This document shows, one piece after another, positions 25,455 to 49,385 of a DNA stretch of 64,000 nucleotides (positions are counted from its first letter, which is position 1; each line of letters starts with the position of its first letter). The DNA lies in contig NZ_CAUUHX010000002.1 in NCBI RefSeq assembly GCF_963545075.1, positions 954 through 64,953 of the forward strand. Reading direction: 5' to 3'. Position numbers and translations under genes: made by a program. The notes under the pieces were generated by a model. That model was not told the DNA's origin and ran no database searches. It saw only the letters and a list, made by a program, of their open reading frames with translations. The stretch is from an uncultured Granulicatella sp. Lineage in GTDB: Bacteria > Bacillota > Bacilli > Lactobacillales > Aerococcaceae.

Positions 25455-25510
25455 GACTTTTTACCATAGTTTTAGCAATGAAATTCGCTTTAGCGAAGCT
25501 GATAACGTAA
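25455..25510 (+). repeat. Palindromic element, partial copy (left terminus + H3 region)
   Basis: GACTTTTTACCATAGT-TTTAGCAATGAAA-TTCGCT/AGCGAA-GCTG. The right terminus is missing. Confidence 0.5.
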
Positions 25511-25537
25511 TTTCATTAATGAATGAAAACACAAAAA

Positions 25538-25568
25538 ACTTTCCACTGTAGCACGAGTAAAAGAAGTC
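25538..25568 (+). repeat. Palindromic element, mini form
   Basis: AACTTTCCACTGTAGCAC-GAGTAAAAGAAGTC (termini only). Confidence 0.4.
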
Positions 25569-25608
25569 ATCTATACGCCAATTCATAAAAGAATGGCAAA
25601 ACACAAAT

Positions 25609-25743
25609 AACTTTTTACCGTAGTATCAGTAATATAAGCCTTTCAGGCTTATATTACAGGAAAACTTGAGACCTTAGGCTCAAGTTTTAGCAATGAGATT
25701 CGCTCTAGCGAAGCTGCTTGCGTCCATACTACAGTAAAAAGTC
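25609..25743 (+). repeat. Palindromic element, long form (termini + H1 + H2 + H3)
   Basis: Termini AACTTTTTACCGTAGTAT / ATACTACAGTAAAAAGT. H1 ATATAAGCC-TTTC-AGGCTTATAT, H2 CTTGAGACCTTAGGCTCAAG, core AGCAATGAGA, H3 TTCGCT/AGCGAA, then GCTGCTTGCGTCC. Ends 10 nt from the lepA stop. Confidence 0.75.
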
Positions 25744-25753
25744 ATTTAAAAAA

Positions 25754-27583
25754 CTACTTCTCTTCTTCGTTAAGGTTAAGCACCGACATGAATGCTTCTT
25801 GTGGTACTTCAACAGATCCCACTTGTTTCATACGTTTCTTACCTTCTTTTTGTTTCTCTAATAACTTACGTTTACGAGAAACGTCACCACCATAACATTT
25901 CGCCAATACGTTTTTACGTAATGCTTTAATATTTGTACGAGATAAAATTTTGTTTCCAATTGCTGCTTGAATTGGCACTTCAAATTGTTGACGAGGAATT
26001 AATGTTCTTAATTTCTCAGTAATAGCTTTACCACGATTATAAGCAAAATCTTTATGAACGATAATACTTAAGGCATCGACTACTTCACCATTTAACATAA
26101 TATCCATCTTCACTAGTTTACTTTCACGATAGCCGATTAAATCATAATCTAATGATGCATATCCTTTAGTACTTGATTTCAATGAATCAAAGAAATCAAA
26201 AATAATTTCAGATAAAGGCATTTCGTAAATCACATTGACACGATATTCATCTAAGTAATCCATTGTGACAAAAGTACCACGTTTACGTTGGCAAATATCC
26301 ATTACACTTCCAACATACTCATTCGGTACCATAATTGAGGCTTTTACATAAGGTTCTTGAATGGATTGAACGCTAGACTGATCTGGCATTTCAGCAGGGT
26401 TAGAAACTACTACTTCTGTTCCATCTGTCTTTTGAACATGGTAAATTACCGATGGAGCTGTTGTAATTAAATCTAAATCAAATTCACGTTCTAAACGTTC
26501 TTGAATAACATCCATATGAAGCAATCCTAAAAATCCACAACGGAAACCAAAGCCTAATGCTTGAGAAGTTTCTGCTTCGAATTGCAACGCAGCATCATTT
26601 AATTGTAATTTTTCTAATGCATCACGTAAATCATTATATTTAGAAGAATCAATTGGATATAAACCGCAGTATACCATTGGATTCATTTTACGGTAACCTG
26701 ATAAAGGTTCACTTGCTGGATTGTTCGCTAATGTAACAGTATCCCCTACACGAGTATCCTGGATTGTTTTAATAGAAGCAGTAATATACCCTACATCTCC
26801 AACCATTAAGTAATCACGACTAATTGGTTTAGGAGAGAAAATACCAACATCAACTACATCAAATGTTTTTCCATTACTCATTAATTGAATCTTATCACCA
26901 GGTTTTACAATTCCGTTTTGAATACGAACATTCAAGACTACTCCACGGTAAGCATCATAAACTGAGTCGAAAATCAACGCTTGTAAAGGAGCTTCTAAGT
27001 CTCCAGTAGGTGCTGGAATCTTATGAACGATTTGTTCTAAAATTTCTGGAATACCAATTCCTACTTTAGCACTTGCTAGAACCGCTTCACTAGCATCAAT
27101 TCCAATAACGTCTTCAATTTCTGTACGAACACGTTCAGGATCAGCAGCAGGTAAGTCAATTTTATTAATAACTGGAACAATTTCTAAGTCATTATCAATT
27201 GCTAAATACACATTCGCTAATGTTTGAGCTTCAATCCCTTGAGCAGCATCTACTACAAGAATTGCTCCTTCACAGGCTGCCAAGCTACGGCTCACTTCAT
27301 ACGTAAAGTCCACGTGCCCTGGAGTGTCAATTAAGTGGAAAATGTACTCTGTTCCATCATTGGCATCATACGTTAATTCCACCGCATTTAATTTAATTGT
27401 AATTCCACGTTCACGTTCTAAGTCCATAGAGTCTAATAATTGGTCTTGCATTTCACGGTCTGCTACAGTATCTGTTGCTTGTAAAATACGGTCTGCTAAA
27501 GTTGACTTTCCATGGTCAATATGCGCAATAATCGAGAAGTTTCTGATGCGCTCTTGTCGTTTTCTCATTTCTTCTAAATTCAT
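25754..27583 (-). CDS. lepA: Elongation factor 4 (LepA)
   Basis: 609 aa. [28 protein letters not shown] and the LepA C-terminal region. Confidence 0.97.
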
Positions 27584-27601
27584 TCATAATCTCCTTCATA
27601 T

Positions 27602-28939
27602 CTAAATTAATAACGGTAAAAAGACTTGTGCAATTCCTAGGAAAAAGAAAAATCCTAGAACGTCTGTTGCCGTTGTTACAAAGATGGTCGATGAAATGGC
27701 TGGGTCTAATTTCATAGCTTTTAATACTAAAGGTACAAAGAATCCAAAAATTGCTCCCACCATTAAATTCATAGCCATCGCTAAAACTACAATAATCGAT
27801 AAATAAAAGTTTTGATAAGGAATATATAGCGCAATCGCAGCTACAACTCCGGTAATAAGTCCATTCATACAGCCTAAAACAATTTCATTCCAAACATACT
27901 TTTTATCTTTTTCCAATGATAATTGTCCTAATGCAATTTCTTGAATTGCTAGTGCTAGAGTTTGAGAAGCTGAGTTTCCTCCCATCCCCGTAATAATCGG
28001 CATGGCAACCGCAAGAACAACGACTTGTTCGATGGTTGATTGAAACATCCCAACAACAGCTGAAGCCATAAAGGCTGTAATTAAATTAATTAATAACCAA
28101 GGAGTCCGTTTCTTAATGGATTCCATAAATGGACCACCAATTCTTTCAGACCCTTCAACCCCACTAATTAAAAGCATATCTTCATGATGCTCTTCTTGAA
28201 GAACGTGGACGATATCATCAATTGTAATAATCCCAATTAAAAGGCCCTTTGTACTAACTACGGGTACAACTGATAAGTCATATTTTGAAGATAGACGAGC
28301 TACTTCTTCTTGGTCTTCTTCAGGAACTACAGAAATAATATTTGTATGCATTAAATCATGTAAACTGACATCTAATTCATTTGTAAATAAGTCACGAATA
28401 TCAATCCAACCAATTAATTGATTTTGGAATGTTGTCACAAAAATTGTATGAATGACTTCTGTATTTGGAGAAATTTCTCTTAACTTCGTCAATGTTTCTT
28501 CAACGGTTAAATGTTCCTTCACGGAAATAAATTCTGTCGTCATAATCCCTCCGGCAGAATCTTGAGGATATTTTAACATCGTTTGAATTTCATCTTGAGA
28601 AGAACCCTTCATCATATTCAAATATTTTTTACGAATTCCAATTGGCAGATTTCCTAAAATATCCACGACATCGTCATTGGACATTTGTTGGAATAATAAT
28701 CCTACACGGCGGAATGGTAATTTTTCTAACATTCGAATTTGAAGTTCGGGATCACTTACTTCCAAAATGGAAGCTAATCGTGTATTGGAAATGGTATACA
28801 TGAAGTTTTTAAGCACTTCATCGGTTACTTCTTCCAATCCTAGAGCAATATCGATTGGATAATTCTGGTTGAATAATTCCCTAATTCTTTTGACATCTTT
28901 AGATTCCACCATTTGTTCAATAATTTTGGACATATCCAT
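27602..28939 (-). CDS. mgtE: Magnesium transporter MgtE
   Basis: 445 aa. MgtE N-domain, tandem CBS region, and 5 TM segments with the GNSASQ / ATDVLGFFFFLG motifs. Confidence 0.9.
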   Translation of the reverse strand: MDMSKIIEQMVESKDVKRIRELFNQNYPIDIALGLEEVTDEVLKNFMYTISNTRLASILEVSDPELQIRMLEKLPFRRVGLLFQQMSNDDVVDILGNLPIGIRKKYLNMMKGSSQDEIQTMLKYPQDSAGGIMTTEFISVKEHLTVEETLTKLREISPNTEVIHTIFVTTFQNQLIGWIDIRDLFTNELDVSLHDLMHTNIISVVPEEDQEEVARLSSKYDLSVVPVVSTKGLLIGIITIDDIVHVLQEEHHEDMLLISGVEGSERIGGPFMESIKKRTPWLLINLITAFMASAVVGMFQSTIEQVVVLAVAMPIITGMGGNSASQTLALAIQEIALGQLSLEKDKKYVWNEIVLGCMNGLITGVVAAIALYIPYQNFYLSIIVVLAMAMNLMVGAIFGFFVPLVLKAMKLDPAISSTIFVTTATDVLGFFFFLGIAQVFLPLLI

Positions 28940-28997
28940 CGTTTATCACTCCATTCTGTAAACATACTATTGATAGTATACCATATTATATCGATAT

Positions 28998-29027
28998 AAA
29001 AAAAGAGATACCCTCAAGATATCTCTG
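28998..29027 (-). terminator. Terminator upstream of the mgtE promoter
   Basis: Minus strand: AGAGATA-N8-TATCTCT followed by T7, then a TATAAT/TATACT -10-like region before mgtE. Confidence 0.65.
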
Positions 29028-29074
29028 TTGTTTGATAGATTATTTCGCATGAAAAAAACAAAGAAGAACAAGAA

Positions 29075-29155
29075 GACTCCCTATAATAGTATGCTTAGGC
29101 ATGAGAGCCACATTCACGAGCATACAGTCGTTCTTTACTACTATGACAGAAAGTC
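29075..29155 (+). repeat. Palindromic element, short form (degenerate)
   Basis: GACTCCCTATAATAGTATGCTTAGGCATGAGA...TTTACTACTATGACAGAAAGTC. Confidence 0.6.
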
Positions 29156-29201
29156 ATGCGACTTTATATACGGGCTCTCATTAGGTCACGTAAATCAAGA
29201 A

Positions 29202-29339
29202 GACTTCCCATAGTAGTATGAGTAAGATAAGCCTGTTTGGCTTATCTTACAGGAAACTTTGAGACCTAAGGCTCAAAGTTTAGTAATGAGACAGCGAATG
29301 CTGTCTGCTTACGTCCTAATACTACTATAACAGGAAGTC
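29202..29339 (+). repeat. Palindromic element, long form
   Basis: Termini GACTTCCCATAGTAGTAT / ATACTACTATAACAGGAAGTC. H1 GATAAGCC-TGTT-TGGCTTATC, H2 TTTGAGACCTAAGGCTCAAA, H3 CAGC-GAAT-GCTG. Ends 12 nt from the lipoprotein stop. Confidence 0.8.
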
Positions 29340-29351
29340 ATTCGAAATATA

Positions 29352-29927
29352 TTAAAGTTCTGTTGGATCAAAAGTATAAACTACGTTATTCAAATTCCCA
29401 TATTCTTTATTAGAATCATACTTCACAGATTCAATATGAAATCCATTATCAACTGATGTAAAACGATAACACCCATGTTTCATCGGAAATCTATTTGGGA
29501 AAGATTTAGCTTCCATAAATGAGGTTGCAAAACTACCGCTACTATTTTTGTCTAAAATACCAATATGAGCATAAGGTTTTTCATCAACATAAACCGTAAA
29601 GTGAAGAGCTACTTTATTAAAATCGTCATTTGGAGAAAAAAGAGTATACGGTTCACGAATTGTTATCGTCTTATCCACTAATTGTTCCTTTTCTTCTTTA
29701 GGATAGTGAGTTAAAAATACATTCTTAGCTTCTTCTAAATAATCTGCATCAACTTCTTTTAAACGTTCAAACAATAATTCATCACTCTCATCATTTTCAG
29801 AATCCACCGTTAGATTAACGTAAGGATTTATAGAATATTTTATTTCTTTTGAACAACTTGATAACAGGGCAACGGAACAGACAAGTAATGCCAATAAAAT
29901 AAATTTTACATTTTTACACCATTTCAT
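29352..29927 (-). CDS. Lipoprotein, paralogue 1 (possible LanI-like immunity lipoprotein)
   Basis: 191 aa. Lipobox LLSSCSK. Roughly 80% identical by eye to the ORF at 34267-34830. Confidence 0.7.
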   Translation of the reverse strand: MKWCKNVKFILLALLVCSVALLSSCSKEIKYSINPYVNLTVDSENDESDELLFERLKEVDADYLEEAKNVFLTHYPKEEKEQLVDKTITIREPYTLFSPNDDFNKVALHFTVYVDEKPYAHIGILDKNSSGSFATSFMEAKSFPNRFPMKHGCYRFTSVDNGFHIESVKYDSNKEYGNLNNVVYTFDPTEL

Positions 29928-30083
29928 TGTTAACTCCCCCTAATCATTCTCTTGATAAGTAATTCTTAAAACAAATTTTGAAAACGCTACCCTCCTTCTA
30001 ATTATAATTATATGGAAATTTTAGGGAAATACAACATGTTTGTGAAAAAAATAATTTTAAATTAACCTCAATAATTTACCTTA

Positions 30084-31169
30084 CTACTTTTTACTCAATC
30101 CTGTATGAATACTAATCGTTACTTTCACTCCATCATCTTCATTTTTAATTTCTAATATTCCATGATGTAATTCTGACACCCTTTTAACAAAAGCTAGTCC
30201 TATTCCAAAATGTGCATCATTCAGATTGCGATTTTTATCATTTCGGTAAAATAATGAATCTGCATGTTGTAATGTTTCTTCAGTTAAATGTGCACCATTA
30301 TTCCAAACGCTTATCAGTAATTGCTGATGAGTGTATTGTAAATACACTTTGATTGATTTTTTATCTGCCTGACTATATTCCAGTGCATTTTGCATCATAT
30401 TCATTACTGCTCTTAATACATAATTCAAATGAAGATATACTGTAGTATTTTTATCTATCTGTTCATCATATTGGAATGTAACAATACTTTTGTCTTTTAG
30501 CAAATAATGGATTTCTTGATCAATAGATTCAATCACATCTTCTAAGGAATACTCTTTCCATTCATTTTCATTCTCATAGTAAGTTTTCGAATACAAGAGT
30601 AATCGATTTATATATTCAATTATACGATTGCTTGCTATATGAATATCTTGAATATAGGGAAGATATTTTCCTTCAATAGCTGATTGAGATAAGAGTTCAG
30701 AATTTCCTTGAATGACTGTTAATGGTGTTTTTAAATCGTGGGAAGCTGCTGACACTTTAAAAGCTAATGCTTCCTTTTGTTTGCGTTCATTTTCAAGCAT
30801 TCCTTCAATTTGATGTTGCATTTGATTAATCTTTTGATTTGTCTCAAGAAATTCTCTAATTGTTAATGATTCTGTTAAATCTGTAGATTCTAGCCACATG
30901 GATTGATGGTAAACGATGTTCATCTCTTTATGAATTTTTAATAGTAATTGTCGTATATTCAAACTAACAATCACTAATAAAGCAATACAGATATAAATCC
31001 AAGAAAAAATATTCAAAAATACAGGATAAGCTGTTTCTTCACCTGGCACTTTAATAGAAATAGACAATAATGGAAGCAGGTATAACACTAAAATAGCAAT
31101 CAAAAACTCCACTATAATTTTAAGACAAGTCTTTTGAACAAGTTGTTTAAAGCTTATTTTATTTTCCAT
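30084..31169 (-). CDS. Sensor histidine kinase (2 TM, HisKA + HATPase)
   Basis: 361 aa. H-box SAASHDLKTPLTVIQGNSELL, N-box MQNALEYS, G-box GIGLAFVKRV. Confidence 0.85.
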   Translation of the reverse strand: MENKISFKQLVQKTCLKIIVEFLIAILVLYLLPLLSISIKVPGEETAYPVFLNIFSWIYICIALLVIVSLNIRQLLLKIHKEMNIVYHQSMWLESTDLTESLTIREFLETNQKINQMQHQIEGMLENERKQKEALAFKVSAASHDLKTPLTVIQGNSELLSQSAIEGKYLPYIQDIHIASNRIIEYINRLLLYSKTYYENENEWKEYSLEDVIESIDQEIHYLLKDKSIVTFQYDEQIDKNTTVYLHLNYVLRAVMNMMQNALEYSQADKKSIKVYLQYTHQQLLISVWNNGAHLTEETLQHADSLFYRNDKNRNLNDAHFGIGLAFVKRVSELHHGILEIKNEDDGVKVTISIHTGLSKK

Positions 31170-31825
31170 TTATACCCGCCTCCTCTCATTGTTTCTATCG
31201 GATTTAAATGATACGGTTTGAATTTTGAACGTATTTGATACATATATTCAGAAATAGAACGAAATTGAGTATTAGAACTGTTAGGATATACTACTTGATA
31301 GATTTCTTCAATTGTAAATATTCTGGATGTTTGACTAGCTAATAACTGTATTATCATAAATTCACGGTTAGTTAGTTTGATTTCATTTTCCTCAACAAAA
31401 ATTGTTTTTAAATTCATATCAATTGAAATCGAACCAAATTCTAATCGTTTGACCGTTTGTCTATTTCGTTCTTCACGTCTAAGATGCATTTTAATTCTTG
31501 CTAAAAACTCATTTACTGAGAAGGGTTTAGTAATATAGTCATCTGCTCCCGCTAATAATCCATTAATTAAATCTTCCTCCATATCTTTAGCTGTGATAAA
31601 AATAATTGGAGCTTTAATCTGTTCTCTAATTTCATTACAAATCGTTATTCCATCTAGTGGCATCATAATATCTAGTAATATTAAATCAAAGTCAACAAAG
31701 TCACAGATATTTACATCTTCAATACCATTCCTAGTAGTAACATCATAATCATTTAACAATAATATATTTTTGATTAATCTTAGTACACTTTCGTCATCAT
31801 CAATTACTAGTATTTTATACGACAT
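31154..31825 (-). CDS. OmpR-family response regulator
   Basis: 223 aa. Receiver domain (ILVIDDDES, LLDIMMP, ITAKD) plus a winged-helix C-terminus (RGGGYKW). Confidence 0.9.
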   Translation of the reverse strand: MSYKILVIDDDESVLRLIKNILLLNDYDVTTRNGIEDVNICDFVDFDLILLDIMMPLDGITICNEIREQIKAPIIFITAKDMEEDLINGLLAGADDYITKPFSVNEFLARIKMHLRREERNRQTVKRLEFGSISIDMNLKTIFVEENEIKLTNREFMIIQLLASQTSRIFTIEEIYQVVYPNSSNTQFRSISEYMYQIRSKFKPYHLNPIETMRGGGYKWKIK

Positions 31826-31859
31826 ACCCCAACACTCCTATCTTAGACTAATTTTGCTT

Positions 31860-34173: not shown

Positions 34174-34253
34174 GACTTCCTATAGTAGCATGCTTAGGCA
34201 TGAGACTCGTTCCACGAGGCTGCTGCCGTCCAAATACTACTATGTTAGGAAGT
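34174..34253 (+). repeat. Palindromic element, short form (intact)
   Basis: GACTTCCTATAGTAGCATGCTTAGGCATGAGA-CTCG-TTCCA-CGAG-GCTGCTGCCGTCC-AAATACTACTATGTTAGGAAGTC. Ends 13 nt from the lipoprotein stop. Confidence 0.8.
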
Positions 34254-34266
34254 CATTCGTAAACTA

Positions 34267-34830
34267 TTACAATTCTGTTGGATCAAAAGTATAAACAACA
34301 TGATTCAAATTCCCATATTCCTTTGTAGAATCATACTTCACAGATTCAATATACATTCCATTATCAATCGCTGTAAAACGATAACATCCATGTTTCATCG
34401 GAAATCTCTCAGGTAGATATTTCGCTTGCATAAATGAGGTAGCAAACTTATCTTTATCAACTTTTCTTAAACCAATATAAGCATACGGTTCATCATCTAC
34501 ATAAACCGTAAAGTGATAAGAAGCGATCTCATTATTATTAAAAAGAGTATACGGTTCACGAATTGTTATCGCCTTATCCACTAATTGTTCCTTTTCTTCT
34601 TTTGGATAGTCTACTAAAAATACTTGCTTAGCTCTTTCTAGATAAGTTGAATCTATTTCACCTTCTCGTTCAAATAACAATTCATCGCTCTCATCATTTT
34701 CAGAGTCAACTGTTAGGTTCGTATAAGGATTTATAGAATATTTTCTTTCTTTTGAACAACTTGATAACAGAGCAACAGAACAGACAAGTAATGCTAATAA
34801 AATAAATTTTAAATTTTTACACCATTTCAT
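34267..34830 (-). CDS. Lipoprotein, paralogue 2
   Basis: 187 aa, with the same signal peptide and lipobox as 29352-29927. About 130 bp of upstream sequence is also duplicated. Confidence 0.7.
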   Translation of the reverse strand: MKWCKNLKFILLALLVCSVALLSSCSKERKYSINPYTNLTVDSENDESDELLFEREGEIDSTYLERAKQVFLVDYPKEEKEQLVDKAITIREPYTLFNNNEIASYHFTVYVDDEPYAYIGLRKVDKDKFATSFMQAKYLPERFPMKHGCYRFTAIDNGMYIESVKYDSTKEYGNLNHVVYTFDPTEL

Positions 34831-34974: not shown

Positions 34975-35055
34975 GACTCCCTATAGTAGTATACTCAAAC
35001 ATAAGACTCGTTCCACAATGCTGCTGCCATCCAAATACTACTATAACAGGAAGTC
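34975..35055 (+). repeat. Palindromic element, short form (degenerate)
   Basis: GACTCCCTATAGTAGTAT...GCTGCTGCCATCC-AAATACTACTATAACAGGAAGTC. Confidence 0.65.
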
Positions 35056-35100
35056 ATTCACATCATATACGGACTCACATCAGGTCACGTAAAAAAAGAA

Positions 35101-35233
35101 GACTTCCTATAGTAGTATGAGTAATATAAGCCAAAAAGGCTTATATTACAGGAAACTTTGAGACCTTAGGCTCAAAGTTTAGGCATGAGACCGTAGGTCT
35201 GCTGCCGTCCTAATACTACAATGACAGGAAGTC
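35101..35233 (+). repeat. Palindromic element, long form
   Basis: H1 ATATAAGCC-AAAA-AGGCTTATAT, H2 TTTGAGACCTTAGGCTCAAA, H3 AGACC-GTA-GGTCT. Ends 17 nt from the dnaJ stop. Confidence 0.8.
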
Positions 35234-38953: not shown

Positions 38954-39994
38954 TTATAAATTTTTATAATATTGCTCCATTGTTGTTGTGAGCTCTTCTT
39001 GTAATCCTTTGACAATCGATAGGACATTCGAATACGGCATATTTTTAGGTCCTAATAAAGCAATAATTCCTTTATCGTGTTTTGGAGTTTCATAGCTTGC
39101 TGTAATAATACTAAATTCTCCTAATAATGGATCATTCATCTCAGACCCTAAACGAATTTGGATATCTCGGTTAGAAGGCATCACTAATTCGTGCATCTTC
39201 GATTGGTCATCCATTAATCGATAGATTTCTTTTAAATGATGGACATTAGCATGTGAGTCGAAGTAGTTTAATAAATATCTTCTTCCTGCAACATGGAGTC
39301 TATCTTGTTCAAATTGGTTCATCATATCTTGAATCACTTTAACAATTTGAATTTGAGAATTCATATATCGATTCATTAAAGCTGGTAAATCAGACTTCAA
39401 ACGTTGGAGAACTGTTTCTAGTGGCAAGCCAATCAATTCCTCATTAATAATTCGAACGACTTTATCTAAGTCGGAATCATCAATCGCACTTGGAATCGAG
39501 TACACTTTATTTTCAACTAAACCATTGCTCATGACTAAAATCGCCATTACTTGGTTTAGCCCTAGTCGAACAAGTCGAAATCCAGATAATGTAGCACTCC
39601 TTACTTCGGGTCCAATGGAAATCGTTGTGTAATTCGTGAGTGTCGACAAAATATCTGCCGAAACTTTAAAAACATCTTGAATTTCCATGGTCGATTGTTG
39701 GAAAGTTTCACGGATTTGATTACGAATACTTAATGAAACTGGACTGTTTTGAACAGGTAAAATATTATCTAAATAATATCGATACCCCTGATTCGATGGA
39801 ACACGTCCTGAAGAGGTATGGTTCTTTTCAAGATATCCCATCTCTTCTAGCTTCATCATTTCATTTCGAATGGTTGCAGAGCTAACTGCTAAACCCGTTT
39901 GCTGCATCAACTTTTTTGATCCAACTGGTTCTAATGTTTCCGTATATAGTTGAATAATCGATTGTAAGATTAGCAATTGTCTATCGGTTAACAT
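38954..39994 (-). CDS. hrcA: Heat-inducible repressor HrcA
   Basis: MLTDRQLLILQSII...VGSKKL wHTH. I chose the ATG at 39994, which has a GAGAGG RBS; the ORF track starts at GTG 40003. Confidence 0.93.
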   Translation of the reverse strand: MLTDRQLLILQSIIQLYTETLEPVGSKKLMQQTGLAVSSATIRNEMMKLEEMGYLEKNHTSSGRVPSNQGYRYYLDNILPVQNSPVSLSIRNQIRETFQQSTMEIQDVFKVSADILSTLTNYTTISIGPEVRSATLSGFRLVRLGLNQVMAILVMSNGLVENKVYSIPSAIDDSDLDKVVRIINEELIGLPLETVLQRLKSDLPALMNRYMNSQIQIVKVIQDMMNQFEQDRLHVAGRRYLLNYFDSHANVHHLKEIYRLMDDQSKMHELVMPSNRDIQIRLGSEMNDPLLGEFSIITASYETPKHDKGIIALLGPKNMPYSNVLSIVKGLQEELTTTMEQYYKNL

Positions 39995-40009
39995 TTTGGT
40001 CACCTCTCT

Positions 40010-40036
40010 TTAGCACTTGACTAAGACGAGTGCTAA
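40010..40036 (-). promoter_or_regulatory. CIRCE operator (HrcA binding site), with a putative sigma-A promoter just upstream
   Basis: TTAGCACTT-N9-GAGTGCTAA versus the consensus TTAGCACTC-N9-GAGTGCTAA. On the minus strand, TTGACT (40075-40070), a 17-nt spacer and TAAATT (40052-40047) precede it. Confidence 0.9.
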
Positions 40037-40125: not shown

Positions 40126-40166
40126 CAAAAAAGGCTATGTATCGGGATTTCTCCTTTACATAGCCT
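40126..40166 (-). terminator. Terminator after the racemase-like gene and repeat copy
   Basis: Minus strand: AGGCTATGTA-N15-TACATAGCCT followed by TTTTTTG. Confidence 0.7.
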
Positions 40167-40176
40167 AAAATAAATA

Positions 40177-40288
40177 GACTGTAATATGTAGTAGCAAGGT
40201 CGCAAGCAGCCAGCTAAAGCTGTCTCATTGCTAAAAATTAAGCCTAAGGTCTTAATTTTTCCCTATAGTCTGCTACTACATAATAGTC
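40177..40288 (-). repeat. Palindromic element, intermediate form, inverted orientation
   Basis: Reverse complement reads GACTATTATGTAGTAGC...TTAAGACCTTAGGCTTAA-TTTTTAGCAATGAGA-CAGC-TTTA-GCTG-GCTGCTTGCGACC-TTGCTACTACATATTACAGTC. Ends 20 nt from the stop at 40309. Confidence 0.75.
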
Positions 40289-40308
40289 TTATATTTATAA
40301 TTTTAACT

Positions 40309-42334: not shown

Positions 42335-42348
42335 CTTCATTTTATTCA

Positions 42349-42912: not shown

Positions 42913-42973
42913 GTTAACTCTCCTTCATATTTTGTTTACTATACGTTTATACCATATTTTTTAGAAAAATGCA

Positions 42974-44269: not shown

Positions 44270-44280
44270 ACAAATGCCTC

Positions 44281-44712
44281 CTATTTTAAAATCATATCCA
44301 TATGTTCAATTCCAACTAGCTGATAAGGTTGTGACCACACTTCGAAGCCTAATGACTCATAGAATTGTTGTAAATACGTTTGTGCATGAATCATAATTGG
44401 TTGATCGACATACCATTCTTGACAAATTTCTATCGCTCTTTCCATTAGAGCTGTCCCTTTTCCTTGTCTACGATAAGCTTCATCAACAAGGACACGTCCG
44501 ATATGAGCGCCATCTACTTCTTGGAAAATTCGTAAATAAGCAATCACTTTTCCAGATTCATCAGTTTCAAATAAATGCCACGCTCTTTTATCAATTTCAT
44601 CCACTTCTTGATAATTTAATTGTTGTTCCACAATAAAGGTCTGAATTCTTGCTTTATAAATTTCAATGACTTCTGTTTTCGATAATTCGTCAAAATTTTT
44701 CAAGTACCACAT
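44281..44712 (-). CDS. GNAT family N-acetyltransferase (ElaA-like)
   Basis: 143 aa. Acetyl-CoA motif [15 protein letters not shown]. Confidence 0.8.
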
Positions 44713-44724
44713 ATTTTTCCCCTA

Positions 44725-45666
44725 TTATTTTTCAAAATATTTTTTAGTATTTAATTCATCCTCTTTTAATTGAGCAATCAGTGCCTCTACTCCATCGAAT
44801 TTTAATTCGTCTCGTAAATAATGCAACCATTTTACTCTTACTGGGAATTCATAAATATCTCTTTGGAAATCTAAAATATAGACTTCAATCGTAATTTTTG
44901 TGACATCATTAAAAGTTGGATTCACACCAATTGAAGCCATCGCAGGATACCATTTGTCTTCAACTTGAATTTCTACAATGTAAACACCATTTTTCAATAA
45001 ATACGTATCCGTTGAAACATCAATATTTGCTGTTGGAAATCCTAATAAGGCACTTCCACGTCCAAAACCATGAACCACTTTTCCAATCATCGTATATTCA
45101 TAGCCTAATAGTGCATTTGCTTCTTCAATTTGACCTGTTTCTAAATATTGTCGAATAGCGGTTGACCCAATTTTTTCTTCTTCAGTATGTTGTTCTGAGA
45201 TTGTTACAATCGAGAATCTTTCTTTTGCATATGTCGGTAATAATTCCATATTCGCAATATCTTTTTTCCCATAAGTGTAATCAAATCCTGCTACAACTGC
45301 TACAGCATTTAGCCCAACCATATATTGATTCACAAACTCTTGCGGACTTAATGAAGCAAATTCTTTTGTAAAATCAATAACGTAAAAAATATCTACTCCA
45401 AATTCTTCTAATAATTCTACCTTTCTTTCAAAAGGAGAAAGATATTGTAATTCGTCTGGGTGTGCTCCTTGGAATATAATCGAAGGATGATGGTCAAATG
45501 ACATTAACGCTAATTTAACGCCTAGTTCTTGAGCTTTTTCCTTTGCTTGTTGAATCACTTCCTGATGTCCTAAATGAATGCCATCAAAAAATCCAAGTGC
45601 CAACACAATCGGTTCTTGAACAATTTGAGAAGACTCATAAGGATGGGTGATTTTTATAATTTGCAT
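44725..45666 (-). CDS. ribF: Bifunctional riboflavin kinase / FAD synthetase
   Basis: 313 aa. GFFDGIHLGHQ nucleotidyltransferase motif and a C-terminal riboflavin kinase region (GFPTANI). Confidence 0.95.
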   Translation of the reverse strand: MQIIKITHPYESSQIVQEPIVLALGFFDGIHLGHQEVIQQAKEKAQELGVKLALMSFDHHPSIIFQGAHPDELQYLSPFERKVELLEEFGVDIFYVIDFTKEFASLSPQEFVNQYMVGLNAVAVVAGFDYTYGKKDIANMELLPTYAKERFSIVTISEQHTEEEKIGSTAIRQYLETGQIEEANALLGYEYTMIGKVVHGFGRGSALLGFPTANIDVSTDTYLLKNGVYIVEIQVEDKWYPAMASIGVNPTFNDVTKITIEVYILDFQRDIYEFPVRVKWLHYLRDELKFDGVEALIAQLKEDELNTKKYFEK

Positions 45667-45681
45667 GTTATCTCTCTTTCC

Positions 45682-46584
45682 TTAAAACATTTTAATCGGT
45701 TTTAATAGTCCTTTTTTTTCAGGATGAGGTCCATATAAGGCTATTAATTCACCTTCAATATAAAAAGTTGAAGGTTCTATCACTTGTGGTAATTCTGCTA
45801 TTGTTAAAATGGCTCCATTTTTTACTTTTGTAATAAACTCCTCTGGAACATCTACCCTAGGGTATGTTTCAAACACTTCTTCTAAAGGACGAAGAATGGA
45901 TTGTGCTTGATTTTGTTCTACAAAAGCTTCTAATTGTGATAAGGTCACACATTGTTCTGAAACAAATGGTCCACTTTTAATACGAGTTAATTGAGACATA
46001 TGAGCAGGAACGCCTAGTTTTTCTCCTAAATCAACTGCTAATGTTCGAACATAAGTCCCTTTACTGCAGCTAACTTCAAATGTCCATTTTTGTGTTTTAG
46101 TAACTTCATCATAAACAGGAGTCGAAGTTCGTTTAAACTCGTAAATTTTCACTCTTCTTTCTGGACGTTCTACAGGTACCCCTTTACGAGCATATTCGTA
46201 CAGTCTTTTACCATTGACTTTTACAGCAGAATACATTGGTGGGATTTGAATAATTTCTCCCTTGAAAGTTTCCATCATGGCATCAATTTCTTCAATTGTA
46301 AATGGAGAAATAATCTCTTCTTGCTTCACGATTTCTCCATGTGCATCTTCTGTTTCAGTTGCGATTCCTAAACAGATTTCTCCTTGATAGACTTTATTAG
46401 ATTCTAATAAATACTCTACCACTTTTGTTGCTTTTCCAATACAAATTGGTAAAACACCATCTACTTCTGGATCTAAAGTTCCTGAATGCCCTACTTTTTT
46501 CGTTTGTAATAAGCGTCTCACTTTAAAGACACAGTCGAATGAAGTCATTCCTTTTTCTTTCCATAATGGTAAAATTCCGTCCAT
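45682..46584 (-). CDS. truB: tRNA pseudouridine(55) synthase
   Basis: 300 aa. VGHSGTLDPEVDGVL with the catalytic Asp. Confidence 0.95.
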   Translation of the reverse strand: MDGILPLWKEKGMTSFDCVFKVRRLLQTKKVGHSGTLDPEVDGVLPICIGKATKVVEYLLESNKVYQGEICLGIATETEDAHGEIVKQEEIISPFTIEEIDAMMETFKGEIIQIPPMYSAVKVNGKRLYEYARKGVPVERPERRVKIYEFKRTSTPVYDEVTKTQKWTFEVSCSKGTYVRTLAVDLGEKLGVPAHMSQLTRIKSGPFVSEQCVTLSQLEAFVEQNQAQSILRPLEEVFETYPRVDVPEEFITKVKNGAILTIAELPQVIEPSTFYIEGELIALYGPHPEKKGLLKPIKMF

Positions 46585-46768
46585 TGATTTCTTCCTTTTT
46601 CAATAAATTTAACTTAATAACCTTTCATATTTTATCATAGATTTCCTTAAAAACAAACAAATCCTATGCTAGAACAAGTTGCTATTCTCAGTAAAAAATA
46701 TTAATGCTAGGCGTTTGATAAAAAAATATGCTATGATAGAAATACATTAAGTTAAAAGGAGTGACAAC

Positions 46769-47614
46769 ATGTCTCGTATAATGATAGTGACAGATTCAAC
46801 TGCTGATTTAACCGAACAAGAAATCCAAGATTTCAATATTCATGTAGTTCCATTAAATATTACAATTCAAGAGGAACATTATTTAGACGGTGAAACTATT
46901 ACAAAAGAAGAATTCAAAAATAAAATGATTACAAGTTCTGAATTACCAATGACTGCTCAACCTTCTATTGGTCGTTTTGTAGAACTTTATGATGAATTAG
47001 GAAAAGATGGATCGCAAATTATTTCGATTCACTTAATGAATTCGATTAGTGGAACTGTGAATGCTGCAAGACAAGCAGCTGACATTACGGAATCAACTGT
47101 AACGGTTGTTGATTCAGACTTCACTTCTCGTTCAATGGGAATTATTGTTCGTGAAGCTGCTCAAGCTGCAAAAGAAGGTAAGAGTGCTGAAGAAGTTTTA
47201 GCAGTTATTGAAAGTACTCGTCAACGTACGAAATTATATTTAACTGTTTTAAATTTAGATAATTTAATTAAGGGTGGCCGTATTAGTCGTGTCATGGGAG
47301 CTTTCTCTAATTTATTAAATATCAAACTGTTCTTAGAAGTTATTAATGGTAAAATTGAGATTGTTCAAAAAGGGAGAGGTTTAAAGTCTCTTCAGAAGAA
47401 ATATGATGAAGTTTTTGAGGAAATGAAAGCTTGCCCTACTGGGATTCAAGAAATTGGCATTATGCATGCTGGATTAAATGAGTTTAATCAGTCTCAAATT
47501 GATACTTTACGTGAGTTATTCCCAGAGGCTAAACTTACAATTGTAATGACTTCCCCAATTATTATGAGCCATACAGGTGTAGATGCGATGGCGGTTACTT
47601 ACCTAGAAAAATAA
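46769..47614 (+). CDS. DegV family fatty-acid-binding protein
   Basis: 281 aa. IVTDSTADL N-terminus and GTVNAARQAA. Confidence 0.9.
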   Translation: MSRIMIVTDSTADLTEQEIQDFNIHVVPLNITIQEEHYLDGETITKEEFKNKMITSSELPMTAQPSIGRFVELYDELGKDGSQIISIHLMNSISGTVNAARQAADITESTVTVVDSDFTSRSMGIIVREAAQAAKEGKSAEEVLAVIESTRQRTKLYLTVLNLDNLIKGGRISRVMGAFSNLLNIKLFLEVINGKIEIVQKGRGLKSLQKKYDEVFEEMKACPTGIQEIGIMHAGLNEFNQSQIDTLRELFPEAKLTIVMTSPIIMSHTGVDAMAVTYLEK

Positions 47615-47623
47615 ATTTAAATT

Positions 47624-47756
47624 GACTTTCAAATAGTAGCAAGGACGGCAGCAGCTTCGCGTAGCGAATCTCATGCCTAAATTTTGAGCCTTAGGTCTCA
47701 AAATTTCCTGAAAGATAAGCCTCTGGCTTATCTTTCCCATACTACTATAGGAAGTC
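47624..47756 (-). repeat. Palindromic element, long form, inverted orientation
   Basis: Reverse complement: GACTTCCTATAGTAGTATG-H1(GATAAGCC-AGA-GGCTTATC)-H2(TTTTGAGACCTAAGGCTCAAAA)-TTTAGGCATGAGA-H3(TTCGC-TAC-GCGAA)-GCTGCTGCCGTCC. Confidence 0.8.
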
Positions 47757-47770
47757 TTTTTCATTAAAAT

Positions 47771-47817
47771 AAGACAAACATCTTCTTAGTTTTTTCTTCT
47801 AAGTTGATGTTTGTCTT
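47771..47817. terminator. Bidirectional terminator between degV and the convergent membrane protein gene
   Basis: AAGACAAACATC-N23-GATGTTTGTCTT, a 12-bp stem, with a T-run after the stem on the plus strand (TTTTC) and A/T-rich sequence (ATTTTAAT) on the minus strand. Confidence 0.7.
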
Positions 47818-47822
47818 TTCTG

Positions 47823-48974
47823 TTACATGAGGAAGTTTCCTACTAATATTCCTATATACGTTCCTAATATATATCCTAATGTTCCTACTAACATAGTTGG
47901 TGCTACGAAGCGGTGCCAGCCTTTTGATACTGCCATGGCTGCTGCCGTTGTTGGACCACCAATGTTTGCATTGGATGCTAAAATAGCTTCTTCAATCGTA
48001 AAGCCAAATACTTTTGCCCCTAAGAAAGTTACGAACATATTTACAAAAACCATAATAGCACAGAACACTAAAAGTAATGGAGATTTTGCAATAATCGCCT
48101 CAATTGAAGCTGGAATCCCAATTACGACAAAGAATAAGTAAATTAAGAAAGTTCCAATTTCATTTGCTCCATGAATTTTCTTGAAAAATGAAGAAAATAA
48201 CGTTGAAGCTGCTACTGTTAAAGTTGTTAGAATCAAATATTTATTAGAAATAAATTGAACCACACTATTTTGTCCAAGAGTGGCAATTCCTTTTGATAAA
48301 CTAAAGCTTACTGTTACAATCACTACTGCTATCGCAAATACAAAAGCAATATCTTGTAAAGTCACAAGCGTTTTAGATTGAAATTCTTTTGAATCCTCTA
48401 CCTCTTCATTTGAATAAGCAGATTTAAAATGTTTTTTGAAAAATGCCATAGATGGAATCATTAATAAAATTAAGAAATAAAACACCATTAATAAATTATC
48501 CGCTACAGTAGCTGCAGAAATTAATTCCTTTGGAATATCAAAAGCAGTTGCTACTGCGACAAAGTTAACTCCTCCACCGATATAACTTCCAACCATCATT
48601 CCGGCAATATGATTCAACACCGGAATCATTTTTCCTAAGAAAGCATATCCTACTAAAGCCCCTAAAACAGTTCCGACAGAACTAATTAAGAAAATCATTA
48701 ATAGACGTCCGCTTTCCTTCCAAATTTGTTTTAAATCACATGTAAATAGCAACATTGGAATGGCTAATGGAACGACAATATCCCAGACTTGATCATAAAC
48801 AGGAGATTCAACAGGGATGATACCAACATTACTTAAAGTTGCTGCTGCTAATAAACCAATAATTGGACCACTAATTTTTGAAGCCCACTTATAATGATTT
48901 TCTAAATAAATACTTGCTGTTGCAATGACAATAATAATGGACCAAAGAATCCAAGTTTCATTTGCAGAAATCAT
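47823..48974 (-). CDS. Polytopic membrane protein (DUF819-like)
   Basis: 383 aa, about 11 TM. The family call is from memory of the N-terminal pattern only. Confidence 0.5.
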   Translation of the reverse strand: MISANETWILWSIIIVIATASIYLENHYKWASKISGPIIGLLAAATLSNVGIIPVESPVYDQVWDIVVPLAIPMLLFTCDLKQIWKESGRLLMIFLISSVGTVLGALVGYAFLGKMIPVLNHIAGMMVGSYIGGGVNFVAVATAFDIPKELISAATVADNLLMVFYFLILLMIPSMAFFKKHFKSAYSNEEVEDSKEFQSKTLVTLQDIAFVFAIAVVIVTVSFSLSKGIATLGQNSVVQFISNKYLILTTLTVAASTLFSSFFKKIHGANEIGTFLIYLFFVVIGIPASIEAIIAKSPLLLVFCAIMVFVNMFVTFLGAKVFGFTIEEAILASNANIGGPTTAAAMAVSKGWHRFVAPTMLVGTLGYILGTYIGILVGNFLM

Positions 48975-49051
48975 AGCACACCTCTTTTATTCATAGTGTA
49001 TTTATTATACCACAGATAGAAATTTTTTCACGATGTTATTGAAATAAATAA

Positions 49052-49192
49052 ATACACTCTCTGTAGTAGCTTGGGACGCAAGCAGCCTCGCTTTTGCGAG
49101 TCTCATTGCTAAAATTTGAGCCTAAGGTCTCAATTTTTCCCGTAATGAAATCCTTCATCAGGATTCCATTACACTAGCTACTACGGAGAGTA
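49052..49192 (-). repeat. Palindromic element, long form, inverted orientation, divergent stems
   Basis: Termini ATACACTCTCTGTAGTAGC / GCTACTACGGAGAGTAT. H1 has a different sequence but still pairs (AATGAAATCC/GGATTCCATT). The core reads GCAATGAGACTCGC-AAAA-GCGAG-GCTGCTTGCGTCC on the reverse strand. Confidence 0.75.
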
Positions 49193-49262
49193 TTTTTTGT
49201 TATAATTTTTTACGTTTCCTACTTAGAAGTATTAAATCTTAAGGTAAATGCAAATAAAAAAA

Positions 49263-49385
49263 TTCTATAGTAATATGCGTAAAAGTAGCCATCTGGCTAC
49301 TTTTACTAGGAAAATTTGAGACTATGGCTCAAATTTTAGCCAAGAGACCCCATAGGGGGCTACTGGCGTCCTATATTACTATAGA
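49263..49385 (+). repeat. Palindromic element, long form, divergent stems
   Basis: Termini TTCTATAGTAATAT / ATATTACTATAGAA. H1 GTAAAAGTAGCC-ATCT-GGCTACTTTTAC, H2 TTTGAGACTATGGCTCAAA, H3 CCCC-ATA-GGGG. Ends 19 nt from the rbfA stop. Confidence 0.75.

What the first reader, a model, noticed from the sequence alone, without database searches (positions are those of the whole stretch)
25455..49385. Modular palindromic intergenic element family with a conserved core and covarying hairpins
Seen in the sequence, the consensus long form is: GACTTCCTATAGTAGTA - H1 (e.g. GATAAGCC-N4-GGCTTATC) - AGGAAA - H2 (TTTGAGACC-T/A-AGGCTCAAA) - TTTAGGCATGAGA - H3 - GCTGCTGCCGTCC - TACTACTATAGGAAGTC.

The H3 stem differs in nearly every copy yet always pairs: CAGC/GCTG, CTCG/CGAG, GACC/GGTC, TTCGC/GCGAA, CCCC/GGGG, CTCGC/GCGAG. 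H1 and the outer helix also change sequence while keeping complementarity, as at 49052-49192 and 49263-49385.

Copies by form:
- Mini: 23113, 25538.
- Short: 29075, 34174, 34975.
- Long: 25609, 29202, 35101, 47624, 49052, 49263.
- Intermediate: 40177.
- Partial: 25455.
- About 287 nt: 54574, 60079.

Both orientations occur. Nine copies end 7-20 nt after the stop codon of a minus-strand gene: sdpI, lepA, both lipoproteins, dnaJ, the racemase gene, rbfA, the trmH-like gene and uvrC.

Inference: this is either a MITE/BOX-like mobile element with strong 3'-of-gene insertion preference, or a selected cloverleaf-like 3'-UTR or sRNA structure. I do not recognise it as a described repeat or Rfam family.
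Basis: partly seen in the sequence, partly recalled or inferred. Interest (0 to 1): 0.7.

Follow-up and report, generated by a model that had tools for sequence, protein, structure and literature searches.

The report
Terminator-like cloverleaf repeats of Granulicatella
A family of about 140-base folded DNA repeats sits just after the stop codons of many ordinary genes in one group of oral bacteria (the Granulicatella elegans group), where normal transcription terminators would be; it is a new example of a known kind of bacterial repeat rather than a new kind of system.

Summary
The window, which is about 95% identical to Granulicatella elegans, holds 9 full and about 6 reduced copies of a structured repeat. 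A long outer helix encloses three hairpins around a conserved core. A covariance model found about 190 more copies in 110 related 8-kb blocks.

Pairing is kept in 95.6% of pair cells, and 43 of 55 pairs show compensatory changes. There is no G-U wobble bias on either strand.

The first copy after a gene starts a median of 11 nt past the stop codon. Among stop-proximal copies, 91 have one orientation and 2 the other. In that orientation the mRNA-sense strand ends in a U-rich tail.

Ordinary terminators follow only 4 of 84 arrays, against 76 of 295 element-free gene ends. Close relatives have the same sites empty, with ordinary terminators there.

The core matches part of Rfam RF02616 (S. pyogenes sRNA SSRC8_2) below threshold. 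There is no similarity to EFAR, and no transposase was found.

Verdict: this is a lineage-amplified, MITE/SPRITE/BOX-like repeat that most likely serves as the gene's terminator. It is a new member of a known kind. The function of the conserved core and the way it spreads are unknown.

The parts
23113..23172 (.). Mini copy: an outer-helix-only palindrome, 6 nt after the sdpI stop codon.
   Evidence: Sequence. Weak model match of 11 bits. SdpI confirmed.
25455..25508 (+). Partial copy: the 5' outer arm joined directly to the H3 segment. H1, H2 and the 3' arm are missing.
   Evidence: Direct repeat D11 is 88% identical to 25683-25723.
25537..25568 (+). Truncated copy: a 5' outer arm plus the 5' half of H1 of a second subtype.
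   Evidence: It aligns with the full element that occupies this site in L047, L077, L087 and L103.
25609..25743 (+). Long copy, 10 nt after the lepA stop codon. The model strand is antisense to lepA.
   Evidence: 142.4 bits, E = 4.9e-41.
29075..29155 (+). Short, decayed copy lacking H1 and H2.
   Evidence: 12-13 bits. Repeat family D4. Alignment.
29159..29198 (+). Conserved spacer module between tandem copies.
   Evidence: The motif TACG..CTCTCAT..CGTCC recurs at independent arrays.
29202..29339 (+). Long copy, 12 nt after the stop codon of lipoprotein gene 29352-29927.
   Evidence: 142.9 bits.
34174..34254 (+). Short copy (outer helix plus H3), 12 nt after the stop codon of the lipoprotein paralogue 34267-34830.
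   Evidence: 42.3 bits. Fold. Conserved in L088, L061 and L039.
34975..35055 (+). Short copy. It is a deletion derivative of a long copy that is still present at this position in G. elegans ATCC 700633.
   Evidence: 24.4 bits. Alignment with L039.
35059..35097 (+). Conserved spacer module between tandem copies.
35101..35233 (+). Long copy, 17 nt after the dnaJ stop codon.
   Evidence: 134.7 bits. Fold z-scores of -8.8 and -9.8 on the two strands.
40177..40290 (-). Intermediate copy without H1, in the rare 'sense' orientation after the racemase gene. An ordinary terminator follows it at 40133-40165.
   Evidence: 78.8 bits. Sequence.
47624..47756 (-). Long copy, 9 nt after the stop codon of the plus-strand degV gene. 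Its orientation flips with the gene. The tail is GGAAGTC-TTTTT.
   Evidence: 139 bits. The site is empty in L120.
49052..49192 (-). Long copy, the inverted partner of 49263. The U-tract ends of the two copies face each other.
   Evidence: 140.7 bits. Inverted-pair statistics.
49263..49385 (+). Long copy, 19 nt after the rbfA stop codon.
   Evidence: 115.6 bits. The site is empty in L119 and L120, which have an ordinary terminator there.
54612..54864 (+). Type B (~287-nt form): a 5' extension (54612-54715) plus a cloverleaf with a different outer helix (54716-54864). It lies 5 nt after the stop codon of the SpoU/TrmH-type gene.
   Evidence: 84.3 bits. RF02616 local hit at 54777-54835..
60113..60367 (+). 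Type B paralogue, 4 nt after the uvrC stop codon.
   Evidence: 86.8 bits. Its extension is 72% identical to the 54.6-kb copy.

Best explanation
This is a family of small interspersed structured repeats that was amplified in the Granulicatella elegans group.

Architecture: each full unit is about 135-145 nt. A 17-20 bp outer helix (the inverted-repeat ends) closes a junction that carries three hairpins. The conserved core comprises:
- the upper part of H2, UUGAGACC-NNA-GGCUCAA, with a bulged A;
- the base of H3 with a 2x2 internal loop;
- the junction strings AGGAAA, UUUAG and CGUCC.
The other helices vary freely but stay Watson-Crick paired.

Position: copies sit where terminators sit, about 11 nt after a stop codon. 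They are almost always oriented so that the mRNA carries the reverse complement of the Rfam-sense strand. In that orientation the transcript ends with the outer helix followed directly by a U-rich tract.

Inference: the element works as the gene's intrinsic terminator and as a stable 3' end. That role is why it is tolerated and why its helices are kept paired in place.

Origin and spread: it arrived by insertion, since the same sites are empty in close relatives. It then spread further by tandem duplication, and copies exchange modules by recombination or gene conversion. The conserved core is probably what the propagation machinery recognises, at the DNA level. That step is inferred and no enzyme was identified.

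Shown: family membership, structure, covariation, position and orientation rule, U-tract, depletion of ordinary terminators, and empty sites. Inferred: termination activity and the mode of mobility.
For: - Copy number and host: at least 110 pattern-bearing blocks, all Granulicatella. About 190 model matches in 798 kb and more. The window is 92-97% identical to these genomes.
- Structure: 95.6% of cells are paired, 43 of 55 pairs have double changes, and no shuffle out of 500 reaches the observed values.
- In-place constraint: between orthologous copies there are 215 Watson-Crick to Watson-Crick double changes against about 306 single changes. Stems differ at about 6% per nucleotide against 17% for unpaired positions.
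- Genomic context: 86 antisense against 8 sense copies lie between co-directional genes, and only 1 of 122 lies in a divergent spacer.
- Distance: the first copy lies a median of 11 nt from the stop codon, interquartile range 7-16, with 106 antisense against 9 sense. Among stop-proximal copies the split is 91 to 2.
- Ordinary terminators start a median of 14 nt from stop codons in the same genomes.
- U-tract: at least 6 T in the 10 nt after the outer helix in 81% of copies on the mRNA-sense side, against 35% on the other side.
- Terminator depletion: an ordinary terminator lies within 110 nt after only 4 of 84 arrays, against 76 of 295 element-free gene ends.
- The one sense-oriented, stop-proximal copy in the window (40177) is followed by an ordinary terminator.
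- Empty sites: L119 and L120 (RbfA 93% and 90% identical) have 113-nt and 45-nt spacers holding ordinary terminators. The window has 430 nt and 208 nt with elements at the same sites.
- Arrays: 22 direct pairs have a ~37-nt conserved spacer. Eight inverted pairs all have their U-tract ends facing.
Against: - No transcript data exist for this organism, so termination is inferred only.
- The outer helix closes a ~100-nt multibranch loop, which is unlike typical intrinsic terminators.
- At some sites an ordinary terminator still follows the copies (29004-29026; 47775-47818).
- G-U pairs (79) are no commoner than A-C mismatches (92). That is not what RNA-level selection alone would give.
- The strong conservation of the core is not explained by a terminator role.
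- In the S. pyogenes-type SSRC8_2 locus the U-tract follows the opposite strand of the core.
- Counts include orthologous copies from about 12 related genomes. They represent about 60 independent sites, and the blocks were chosen because they contain the element.
Confidence: 0.55

Rival explanations
1. A purely selfish MITE. It inserts preferentially at or next to terminators, or survives only there. It has no host function, and its structure reflects only what its transposase needs.
For: - It has inverted-repeat ends, many copies and deletion derivatives, and some sites are empty in relatives.
- At the degV site the element lies beside a retained bidirectional terminator.
- Pneumococcal repeats show similar enrichment downstream of genes, and that has been read as tolerance (PMC3049150).
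Against: - No transposase or other multicopy ORF was found in 880 kb of element-rich DNA.
- No target-site duplication could be defined.
- All sampled G. elegans-group genomes keep the same sites occupied.
- Stems are constrained and compensated between orthologous copies.
- Ordinary terminators are depleted after arrays.
- The U-tract and the orientation rule fit function.
Confidence: 0.2
2. A mobile element recognised as folded single-stranded DNA, in the manner of REP/RAYT, IS200/IS605 ends or integron attC sites. The conserved core with its bulged base is the strand-specific recognition site. The helices need only pair.
For: - Covariation is purely Watson-Crick with no wobble bias on either strand.
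- Asymmetric features, a bulged A in H2 and an internal loop in H3, are conserved within otherwise palindromic DNA.
- The orientation bias is strong.
- The same core occurs in opposite transcriptional orientation in Streptococcus, so the RNA sense seems not to matter for the core.
Against: - No HUH transposase, RAYT or integrase gene was seen near any copy.
- The flanking genes are housekeeping genes in conserved order, not cassettes.
- At the one clearly informative site (degV) the orientation follows the gene, not the local majority strand.
Confidence: 0.1
3. A 3'-UTR regulator in the manner of stop-codon-proximal REP sequences. In this view a stable structure within about 15 nt of the stop codon stalls terminating ribosomes or directs RNase cleavage, and so tunes the upstream gene. 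Transcription termination would not be its role.
For: - The structure begins 2-17 nt after stop codons, within reach of a terminating ribosome.
- The structure is very stable.
- From my own knowledge, not checked here: REP sequences within 15 nt of a stop codon lower expression through trans-translation in E. coli (Liang, Rudd and Deutscher 2015).
Against: - Ordinary terminators in these genomes lie at the same distance, so proximity is not special.
- This view does not explain the U-tract or the terminator depletion.
- There are no expression data.
Confidence: 0.1
4. A family of independently transcribed small RNAs in the Rfam (SSRC8) sense, acting antisense on the 3' ends of the upstream genes.
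For: - The core matches RF02616.
- That RNA was detected by Northern blot and RACE in S. pyogenes (PMC3675131).
- This strand is antisense to the upstream gene in about 90% of copies.
Against: - No promoter-like site lies in the spacers or flanks.
- No U-tract follows this strand.
- There is no wobble bias for this strand.
- Hundreds of near-identical antisense RNAs against unrelated housekeeping genes lack a rationale.
Confidence: 0.05

Closest known systems
Rfam RF02616 SSRC8_2 (Streptococcus pyogenes sRNA candidate 8; Tesorero et al. 2013, PMC3675131)
   Same: - It has the same core: the H2 hairpin UUGAGACCCUAGGCUCAA with a bulged A, then an H3 hairpin with an internal loop, then GCUGCC. 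Local hits have E = 1.6e-7 and 2.6e-6.
- A true member (L116, 340.8 bits) also shares the CACAAC...AUCCCAA tail of the 287-nt form.
- Its length is similar, 281 nt against about 287 nt.
- Its Rfam structure likewise nests the core inside long outer helices that end in a U-run.
- Only positions ~150-250 are conserved in other streptococci.
   Different: - Window copies score 28-34 bits against a gathering score of 72, and only 57 of 281 model positions align.
- H1 and the Granulicatella outer helix have no counterpart.
- SSRC8_2 was described as a single locus in S. pyogenes, not as hundreds of copies.
- In S. pyogenes the U-run follows the opposite strand of the core.
- The whole S. pyogenes region does not fold better than shuffles (z = -1.1).
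[quoted passage not shown] 2011, PMC3049150)
   Same: - It is a small interspersed repeat with a long duplex followed by a U-rich tract.
- It is enriched close to the 3' ends of genes.
- It was proposed to have been co-opted as a terminator.
- No target-site duplication or empty sites could be defined for it.
   Different: - SPRITE is a simple 18-bp duplex with AAAA/TTTT ends, about 30 copies, and no multi-hairpin core.
- Sequence relatedness was not tested here.
- The SSRC8 core is reported absent from S. pneumoniae CGSP14.
BOX elements of S. pneumoniae
   Same: - They are modular, with variable numbers of internal modules.
- The ends pair with each other to close the structure.
- They are co-transcribed with neighbouring genes, and new insertions are rare.
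   Different: - BOX modules (boxA, boxB, boxC) have a different architecture.
- BOX elements show only about 61% strand bias and no strict rule of adjacency to stop codons.
- Sequence relatedness was not tested directly.
EFAR / Efa-1 repeats of Enterococcus faecalis
   Same: - They are intergenic stem-loop repeats of about 163 nt (Efa-1) in a related family of bacteria.
- From my own memory of Venditti et al. 2007, not held in the library: they are about 170 bp, built from variable modules, and integrate at stem-loop sequences.
   Different: - There is no sequence similarity. Local alignment scores of two Efa-1 members against four window copies equal those of shuffles.
- EFAR folds as two independent stem-loops, not as a closed cloverleaf.
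REP/BIME, ERIC and Correia (NEMIS) elements of proteobacteria
   Same: - They are structured intergenic repeats, often in 3' untranslated regions.
- They affect transcript stability or termination.
- They occur in arrays, with alternating orientation in BIMEs (background in PMC3049150).
   Different: - They belong to different phyla and have different sizes and sequences.
- REPs are 20-40 nt and are linked to RAYT transposases.
- Correia and ERIC elements have defined TA target duplications.
- None of these features was found here.

Membership tests
Rfam RF02616 SSRC8_2 | Covariance-model score at or above the curated gathering score of 72 bits. | tested here: not met
   No family reaches its gathering score in the window. 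The best local scores are 32.5 and 28.6 bits. A true member, L116, scores 340.8 bits.
Rfam RF02616 SSRC8_2 | Full-length architecture: 281 nt, with the outer helices of the model. | tested here: inconclusive
   Only model positions 152-208 align. The 287-nt form shares the core and the CACAAC...AATCCCAA tail with L116, but little upstream sequence.
Classical MITE | Terminal inverted repeats, small size and many copies. | tested here: met
   The 17-nt inverted ends occur 9 times against 0.1 expected. Units are 135-145 nt. About 190 copies were found in 798 kb.
Classical MITE | Filled and empty sites among related genomes. | tested here: met
   The rbfA and degV sites are empty in L119 and L120. 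There are no copies in L111, L113, L114 or L118.
Classical MITE | Target-site duplication. | tested here: inconclusive
   The flanks extend the palindrome (A-rich on the left, T-rich on the right) instead of forming direct repeats. The empty sites are too diverged to align base by base.
Classical MITE | A parent insertion sequence with matching ends and a transposase. | tested here: not met
   No multicopy ORF was found in 712 ORFs from 880 kb. There is no match in plasmids, phages or viral contigs. Whole genomes were not available.
REP/BIME with RAYT | Imperfect palindromes of 20-40 nt, with a RAYT gene flanked by them. | tested here: not met
   Units are about 140 nt with four helices. No such gene was seen in the sampled DNA.
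EFAR / Efa-1 | Sequence similarity to Efa-1 members. | tested here: not met
   Local alignment scores are 14-20, against shuffle means of 17-18.
Integron attC site | Location in cassette arrays next to an integron integrase, with R and L boxes. | tested here: not met
   The flanking genes are lepA, dnaJ, rbfA and uvrC, in conserved order. No integrase was seen.
Intrinsic (Rho-independent) terminator | A stable helix followed directly by a U-tract on the transcribed strand, downstream of a gene. | tested here: met
   81% of copies have at least 6 T in the 10 nt after the outer helix on the mRNA-sense side. The median distance from the stop codon is 11 nt.
Intrinsic (Rho-independent) terminator | Transcripts actually end there. 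| not testable with these tools
   No transcriptome or 3'-end data for Granulicatella were available.
tRNA-like or tmRNA-like cloverleaf | Recognised by ARAGORN. | tested here: not met
   No genes were found in the window.

The most novel reading that the evidence does not exclude
The conserved core (H2 with its bulged base, the H3 internal loop and the junction strings) may be the recognition site of an unidentified structure-specific protein that acts on folded single strands. On this reading the elements would be a new class of hairpin-recognised mobile terminators. They would descend from an SSRC8-like ~280-nt unit that is shared with streptococci, and they would have replaced the ordinary terminators of housekeeping genes in one lineage. 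The Watson-Crick-only covariation would then reflect a DNA-level requirement, or templated correction of the hairpins.
Probability: 0.12. Interest if true: 0.75.

Novelty: new member of a known kind. Interest (0 to 1): 0.45.

Why it matters
If the reading is right, one lineage of oral bacteria has let a repeat family take over the terminator position of many housekeeping genes, including lepA, dnaJ, rbfA and uvrC.

- **A natural experiment.** Closely related lineages still carry ordinary terminators at the same sites. That makes a clean comparison for how mobile repeats are domesticated into gene-expression signals.
- **Annotation.** The work gives a covariance-model definition that could annotate roughly 3% of such regions. 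It also warns that these copies break metagenome assemblies and may confuse binning. Two contigs carrying them were labelled Carnobacterium and Vagococcus although they are Granulicatella DNA.
- **A link to a known sRNA.** It ties an orphan S. pyogenes 'sRNA' family (SSRC8_2) to a wider repeat core. This suggests that SSRC8_2 is a relic of the same kind of element.
- **An open mechanism.** The absence of wobble pairs despite massive covariation is an unusual signature and deserves a mechanistic explanation.

Tried and rejected
- **Rfam at gathering thresholds:** nothing.
- **Known ribozyme, riboswitch or tRNA-like classes:** none appears among matches up to E = 10 in two element regions. ARAGORN finds nothing.
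- **Plasmid, phage and viral collections:** no match.
- **EFAR:** no sequence similarity.
- **A parent insertion sequence:** a search for multicopy ORFs in all 110 blocks found only orthologues across genomes and one lipoprotein paralogue pair.
- **Empty sites inside the fetched blocks:** none found. Apparent hits were filled sites of other subtypes. Empty sites came only from relatives reached through RbfA homologues.
- **A promoter in the tandem-array spacer:** no site was predicted. Hand inspection gave only poor -35/-10 matches.
- **K-turn or hammerhead readings of the core:** I checked these by eye against the consensus motifs as I remember them. They do not fit.
- **Weak model hits at 5305-5354 and 6237-6276:** these are ordinary long bidirectional terminators, not family members.
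- **Carnobacterium and Vagococcus hits from the pattern scan:** these are mislabelled Granulicatella contigs.
- **The type B 5' extension:** RNAalifold supports only one hairpin, and its role stays unexplained.

Full report
**What is there**

The window has 32% G+C. It is 92-97% identical to genome blocks of Granulicatella, and about 95% identical to G. elegans ATCC 700633 (block L039).

- The 17-nt outer arm occurs 9 times with up to 3 mismatches, against 0.10 expected by chance.
- A long copy folds as an outer helix closing a junction with three hairpins, H1, H2 and H3.
- Fold z-scores are -7 to -9.8, and about equal on the two strands.
- Six long copies alone give 55 consensus pairs, 24 of them with compensatory changes.
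- A covariance model built from them (R1) scores the six long copies at 116-143 bits.
- The 3' halves of the two ~287-nt forms score 84-87 bits, and the H1-less copy at 40177 scores 79 bits.
- The short forms score 12-42 bits.
- The opposite strand always scores far lower, so each copy has a clear polarity.

**Census and host range**

- All blocks are labelled Granulicatella except two metagenome-bin contigs labelled Carnobacterium and Vagococcus.
- Those two contigs are 97% and 85% identical to Granulicatella blocks, so the labels are wrong.
- R1 finds about 190 copies in 798 kb of these blocks, and more in the remaining blocks.
- Nothing similar turns up in plasmid, phage or viral-contig collections.
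- A literature search found no description for Granulicatella.

**Covariation**

These counts are on 150 aligned copies.
- 95.6% of pair cells are standard pairs, against 78.1% after shuffling and 32-46% with slid partners.
- 43 of 55 pairs show changes on both sides, in 1243 cells. No shuffle out of 500 reaches any observed measure.
- H1 has 131 distinct sequences, the outer 5' arm 101 and the H3 tip 81.
- The upper part of H2, the base of H3 and the junction strings hardly vary.
- G-U pairs (79) are no commoner than A-C mismatches (92) among 7934 cells.

So neither strand shows the wobble tolerance typical of RNA-only constraint.

Between copies at the same site in different genomes there are 215 Watson-Crick to Watson-Crick double changes against about 306 single changes. 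Stems differ at about 6% per nucleotide, against 17% for unpaired positions. Pairing is therefore maintained in place, by selection, by gene conversion between copies, or by templated hairpin correction.

Module swaps between orthologous copies are visible directly. For example, the H3 stem TTCGC/GCGAA in the window is CAGC/GCTG in L070 at the lepA site.

**Position and orientation**

The counts below come from the 150 best copies.
- 86 lie between co-directional genes with the model strand antisense to them, and 8 lie in sense.
- 27 lie between convergent genes, and 1 lies between divergent genes.
- The first copy after a gene starts a median of 11 nt from the stop codon, interquartile range 7-16. 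Of these first copies, 106 are antisense and 9 sense, over about 60 independent sites.
- Among copies within 30 nt of a stop codon the split is 91 to 2.
- At the one clearly informative site, the plus-strand degV gene in a minus-strand region, the element flips with the gene.

The transcript of the upstream gene therefore carries the reverse complement of the model.
- On that strand the outer helix is followed at once by a U-rich tail. At least 6 T occur in 10 nt in 81% of copies, against 35% on the other side.
- Ordinary terminators in the same genomes start a median of 14 nt after stop codons, so the elements sit where terminators sit.
- Only 4 of 84 arrays are followed by an ordinary terminator within 110 nt, against 76 of 295 element-free gene ends.
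- The window's one sense-oriented, stop-proximal copy (40177) does have an ordinary terminator right after it.
- Some sites keep an ordinary terminator further on, at 29004-29026 and at 47775-47818.

**Dynamics**

- All sampled genomes of the G. elegans group have the window's sites occupied. This includes sites that did not carry the scanned pattern, such as the short copy at 34174.
- Arrays differ by gain, loss and internal deletion. The short copy at 34975 is a long copy minus H1 and H2. The mini copy at 25538 is a truncated copy of the subtype that fills this site in four other genomes.
- Direct neighbours are separated by a ~37-nt spacer with its own conserved motif.
- Inverted neighbours always have their U-tract ends facing.

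Relatives were reached through RbfA homologues.
- Contigs with RbfA 93% and 90% identical (L119, L120) keep the gene order rbfA-DUF819-degV-truB.
- Their spacers are 113 nt and 45 nt and hold ordinary terminators. The window has 430 nt and 208 nt with elements at the same sites.
- Four further relatives have no copy in 9-20 kb each: one with 84% RbfA identity, G. balaenopterae, Granulicatella sp. zg-ZJ and L118.
- One more distant relative (RbfA 73% identical) has a related element with two H2-like hairpins.

So the family inserted and expanded in one lineage. Since then it has mostly been inherited vertically.

No transposase or other multicopy gene was found in 880 kb. No target-site duplication could be defined, because the flanks extend the palindrome instead.

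**Relation to known things**

At gathering thresholds Rfam finds nothing. With E-value thresholds the core hits RF02616 SSRC8_2 at 32.5 and 28.6 bits, with E = 1.6e-7 and 2.6e-6. These hits cover model positions 152-208 of 281, against a gathering score of 72.

SSRC8 is an S. pyogenes sRNA candidate detected by Northern blot and RACE. Only its positions ~150-250 are conserved in other streptococci (PMC3675131).
- A metagenome contig is a true member at 340.8 bits.
- It shares the core with the 287-nt form, and also the CACAAC...AATCCCAA tail.
- Its Rfam structure also nests the core inside long outer helices that end in a U-run. There, however, the U-run is on the other strand of the core.
- That whole region folds no better than shuffles.

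I read SSRC8_2 as a single, partly decayed relative of the type B unit.

EFAR (Efa-1) sequences, taken from the supplement of PMC2267715, show no similarity. SPRITE, BOX and RUP of the pneumococcus are the closest in kind. SPRITE in particular is a terminator-like repeat enriched at gene 3' ends (PMC3049150).

**Explanation**

The best-supported reading is a lineage-amplified, non-autonomous structured repeat that occupies the terminator position and most likely works as the terminator and stable 3' end of the upstream gene.
- Shown: family, structure, covariation, the position and orientation rule, the U-tract, terminator depletion and empty sites.
- Inferred: termination itself, and how copies spread.
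- Unexplained: the conserved core is not accounted for by a terminator role.
- The core occurs in either transcriptional orientation in different genera, and stems show no wobble bias. For both reasons I think the core is more likely read at the DNA level by whatever propagates the element. This is a guess with no enzyme behind it.

**Verdict**

This is a new member of a known kind of element, with two less ordinary features. One is the conserved multi-helix core shared with a streptococcal 'sRNA'. The other is Watson-Crick-only covariation.

Interest is 0.45.

Noticed in passing
window 40010-40036: A CIRCE-like inverted repeat, TTAGCACTTGACTAAGACGAGTGCTAA, lies just upstream of hrcA (38954-40003, minus strand). 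This is the expected HrcA operator of the hrcA-grpE-dnaK-dnaJ operon.
   Followed up: no
window 54468-54494 (minus strand): A hairpin plus U-run, GAGTGAGCAGGAATGCTCACTCTTTTT, lies in the leader of rimP-nusA-infB, downstream of a TTGATT...TATACT promoter-like pair. It could be an attenuator.
   Followed up: no
window 29305-29925 and 34220-34828: A segmental duplication (82-86% identical) carries two paralogous 187-191-aa lipoprotein genes with no Pfam match. Each is joined to the right end of an element.
   Followed up: partly
window 29159-29198 and 35059-35097; many loci: The ~37-nt spacer between direct tandem copies is itself conserved across independent sites (TACG-NN-CTCTCAT-AAA-N5-CGTCC). 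Its CTCTCAT is complementary to the core's ATGAGAG/C, so alternative pairing is possible.
   Followed up: partly
window 54612-54715 and 60113-60219: The 5' extension of the 287-nt form is 72% identical between the two paralogues. It has a GGCAAA...TTTGCC hairpin and conserved unpaired strings (ACATCCTAAACGTA, CATGGGATT). It was seen only at these two sites in the sampled DNA. Its function is unknown.
   Followed up: partly
window 1-23000, e.g. 5312-5348 and 6237-6276: There are no element copies in the first 23 kb. Genes there end in ordinary long, perfect bidirectional terminators, which give weak spurious model hits.
   Followed up: yes
L003 and L008: Contigs labelled as uncultured Carnobacterium and Vagococcus metagenome bins are 97% and 85% identical to Granulicatella blocks. 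They are probably mis-binned, repeat-bearing contigs.
   Followed up: yes
L029 1529-2905: A 154-aa gene and its 3' element are duplicated in tandem with a 618-bp period. I guess from the sequence alone that the protein is glyoxalase/VOC-like. The two gene copies are identical, so this is either a real recent duplication or an assembly artefact.
   Followed up: no
L117 7072-7182: A more distant relative (RbfA 73% identical) has a related palindromic element with two H2-like hairpins, GA(A/G)GAC-TACA-GGCT(T/C)C, inside a long outer helix. This suggests that the H2 apex is the oldest part of the family.
   Followed up: partly
L116 969-1118 (+): A second Rfam family, SSRC8_1 (RF02529, 192.5 bits), lies on the opposite strand about 300 nt from SSRC8_2, next to the end of an LPXTG surface-protein gene.
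   Followed up: no
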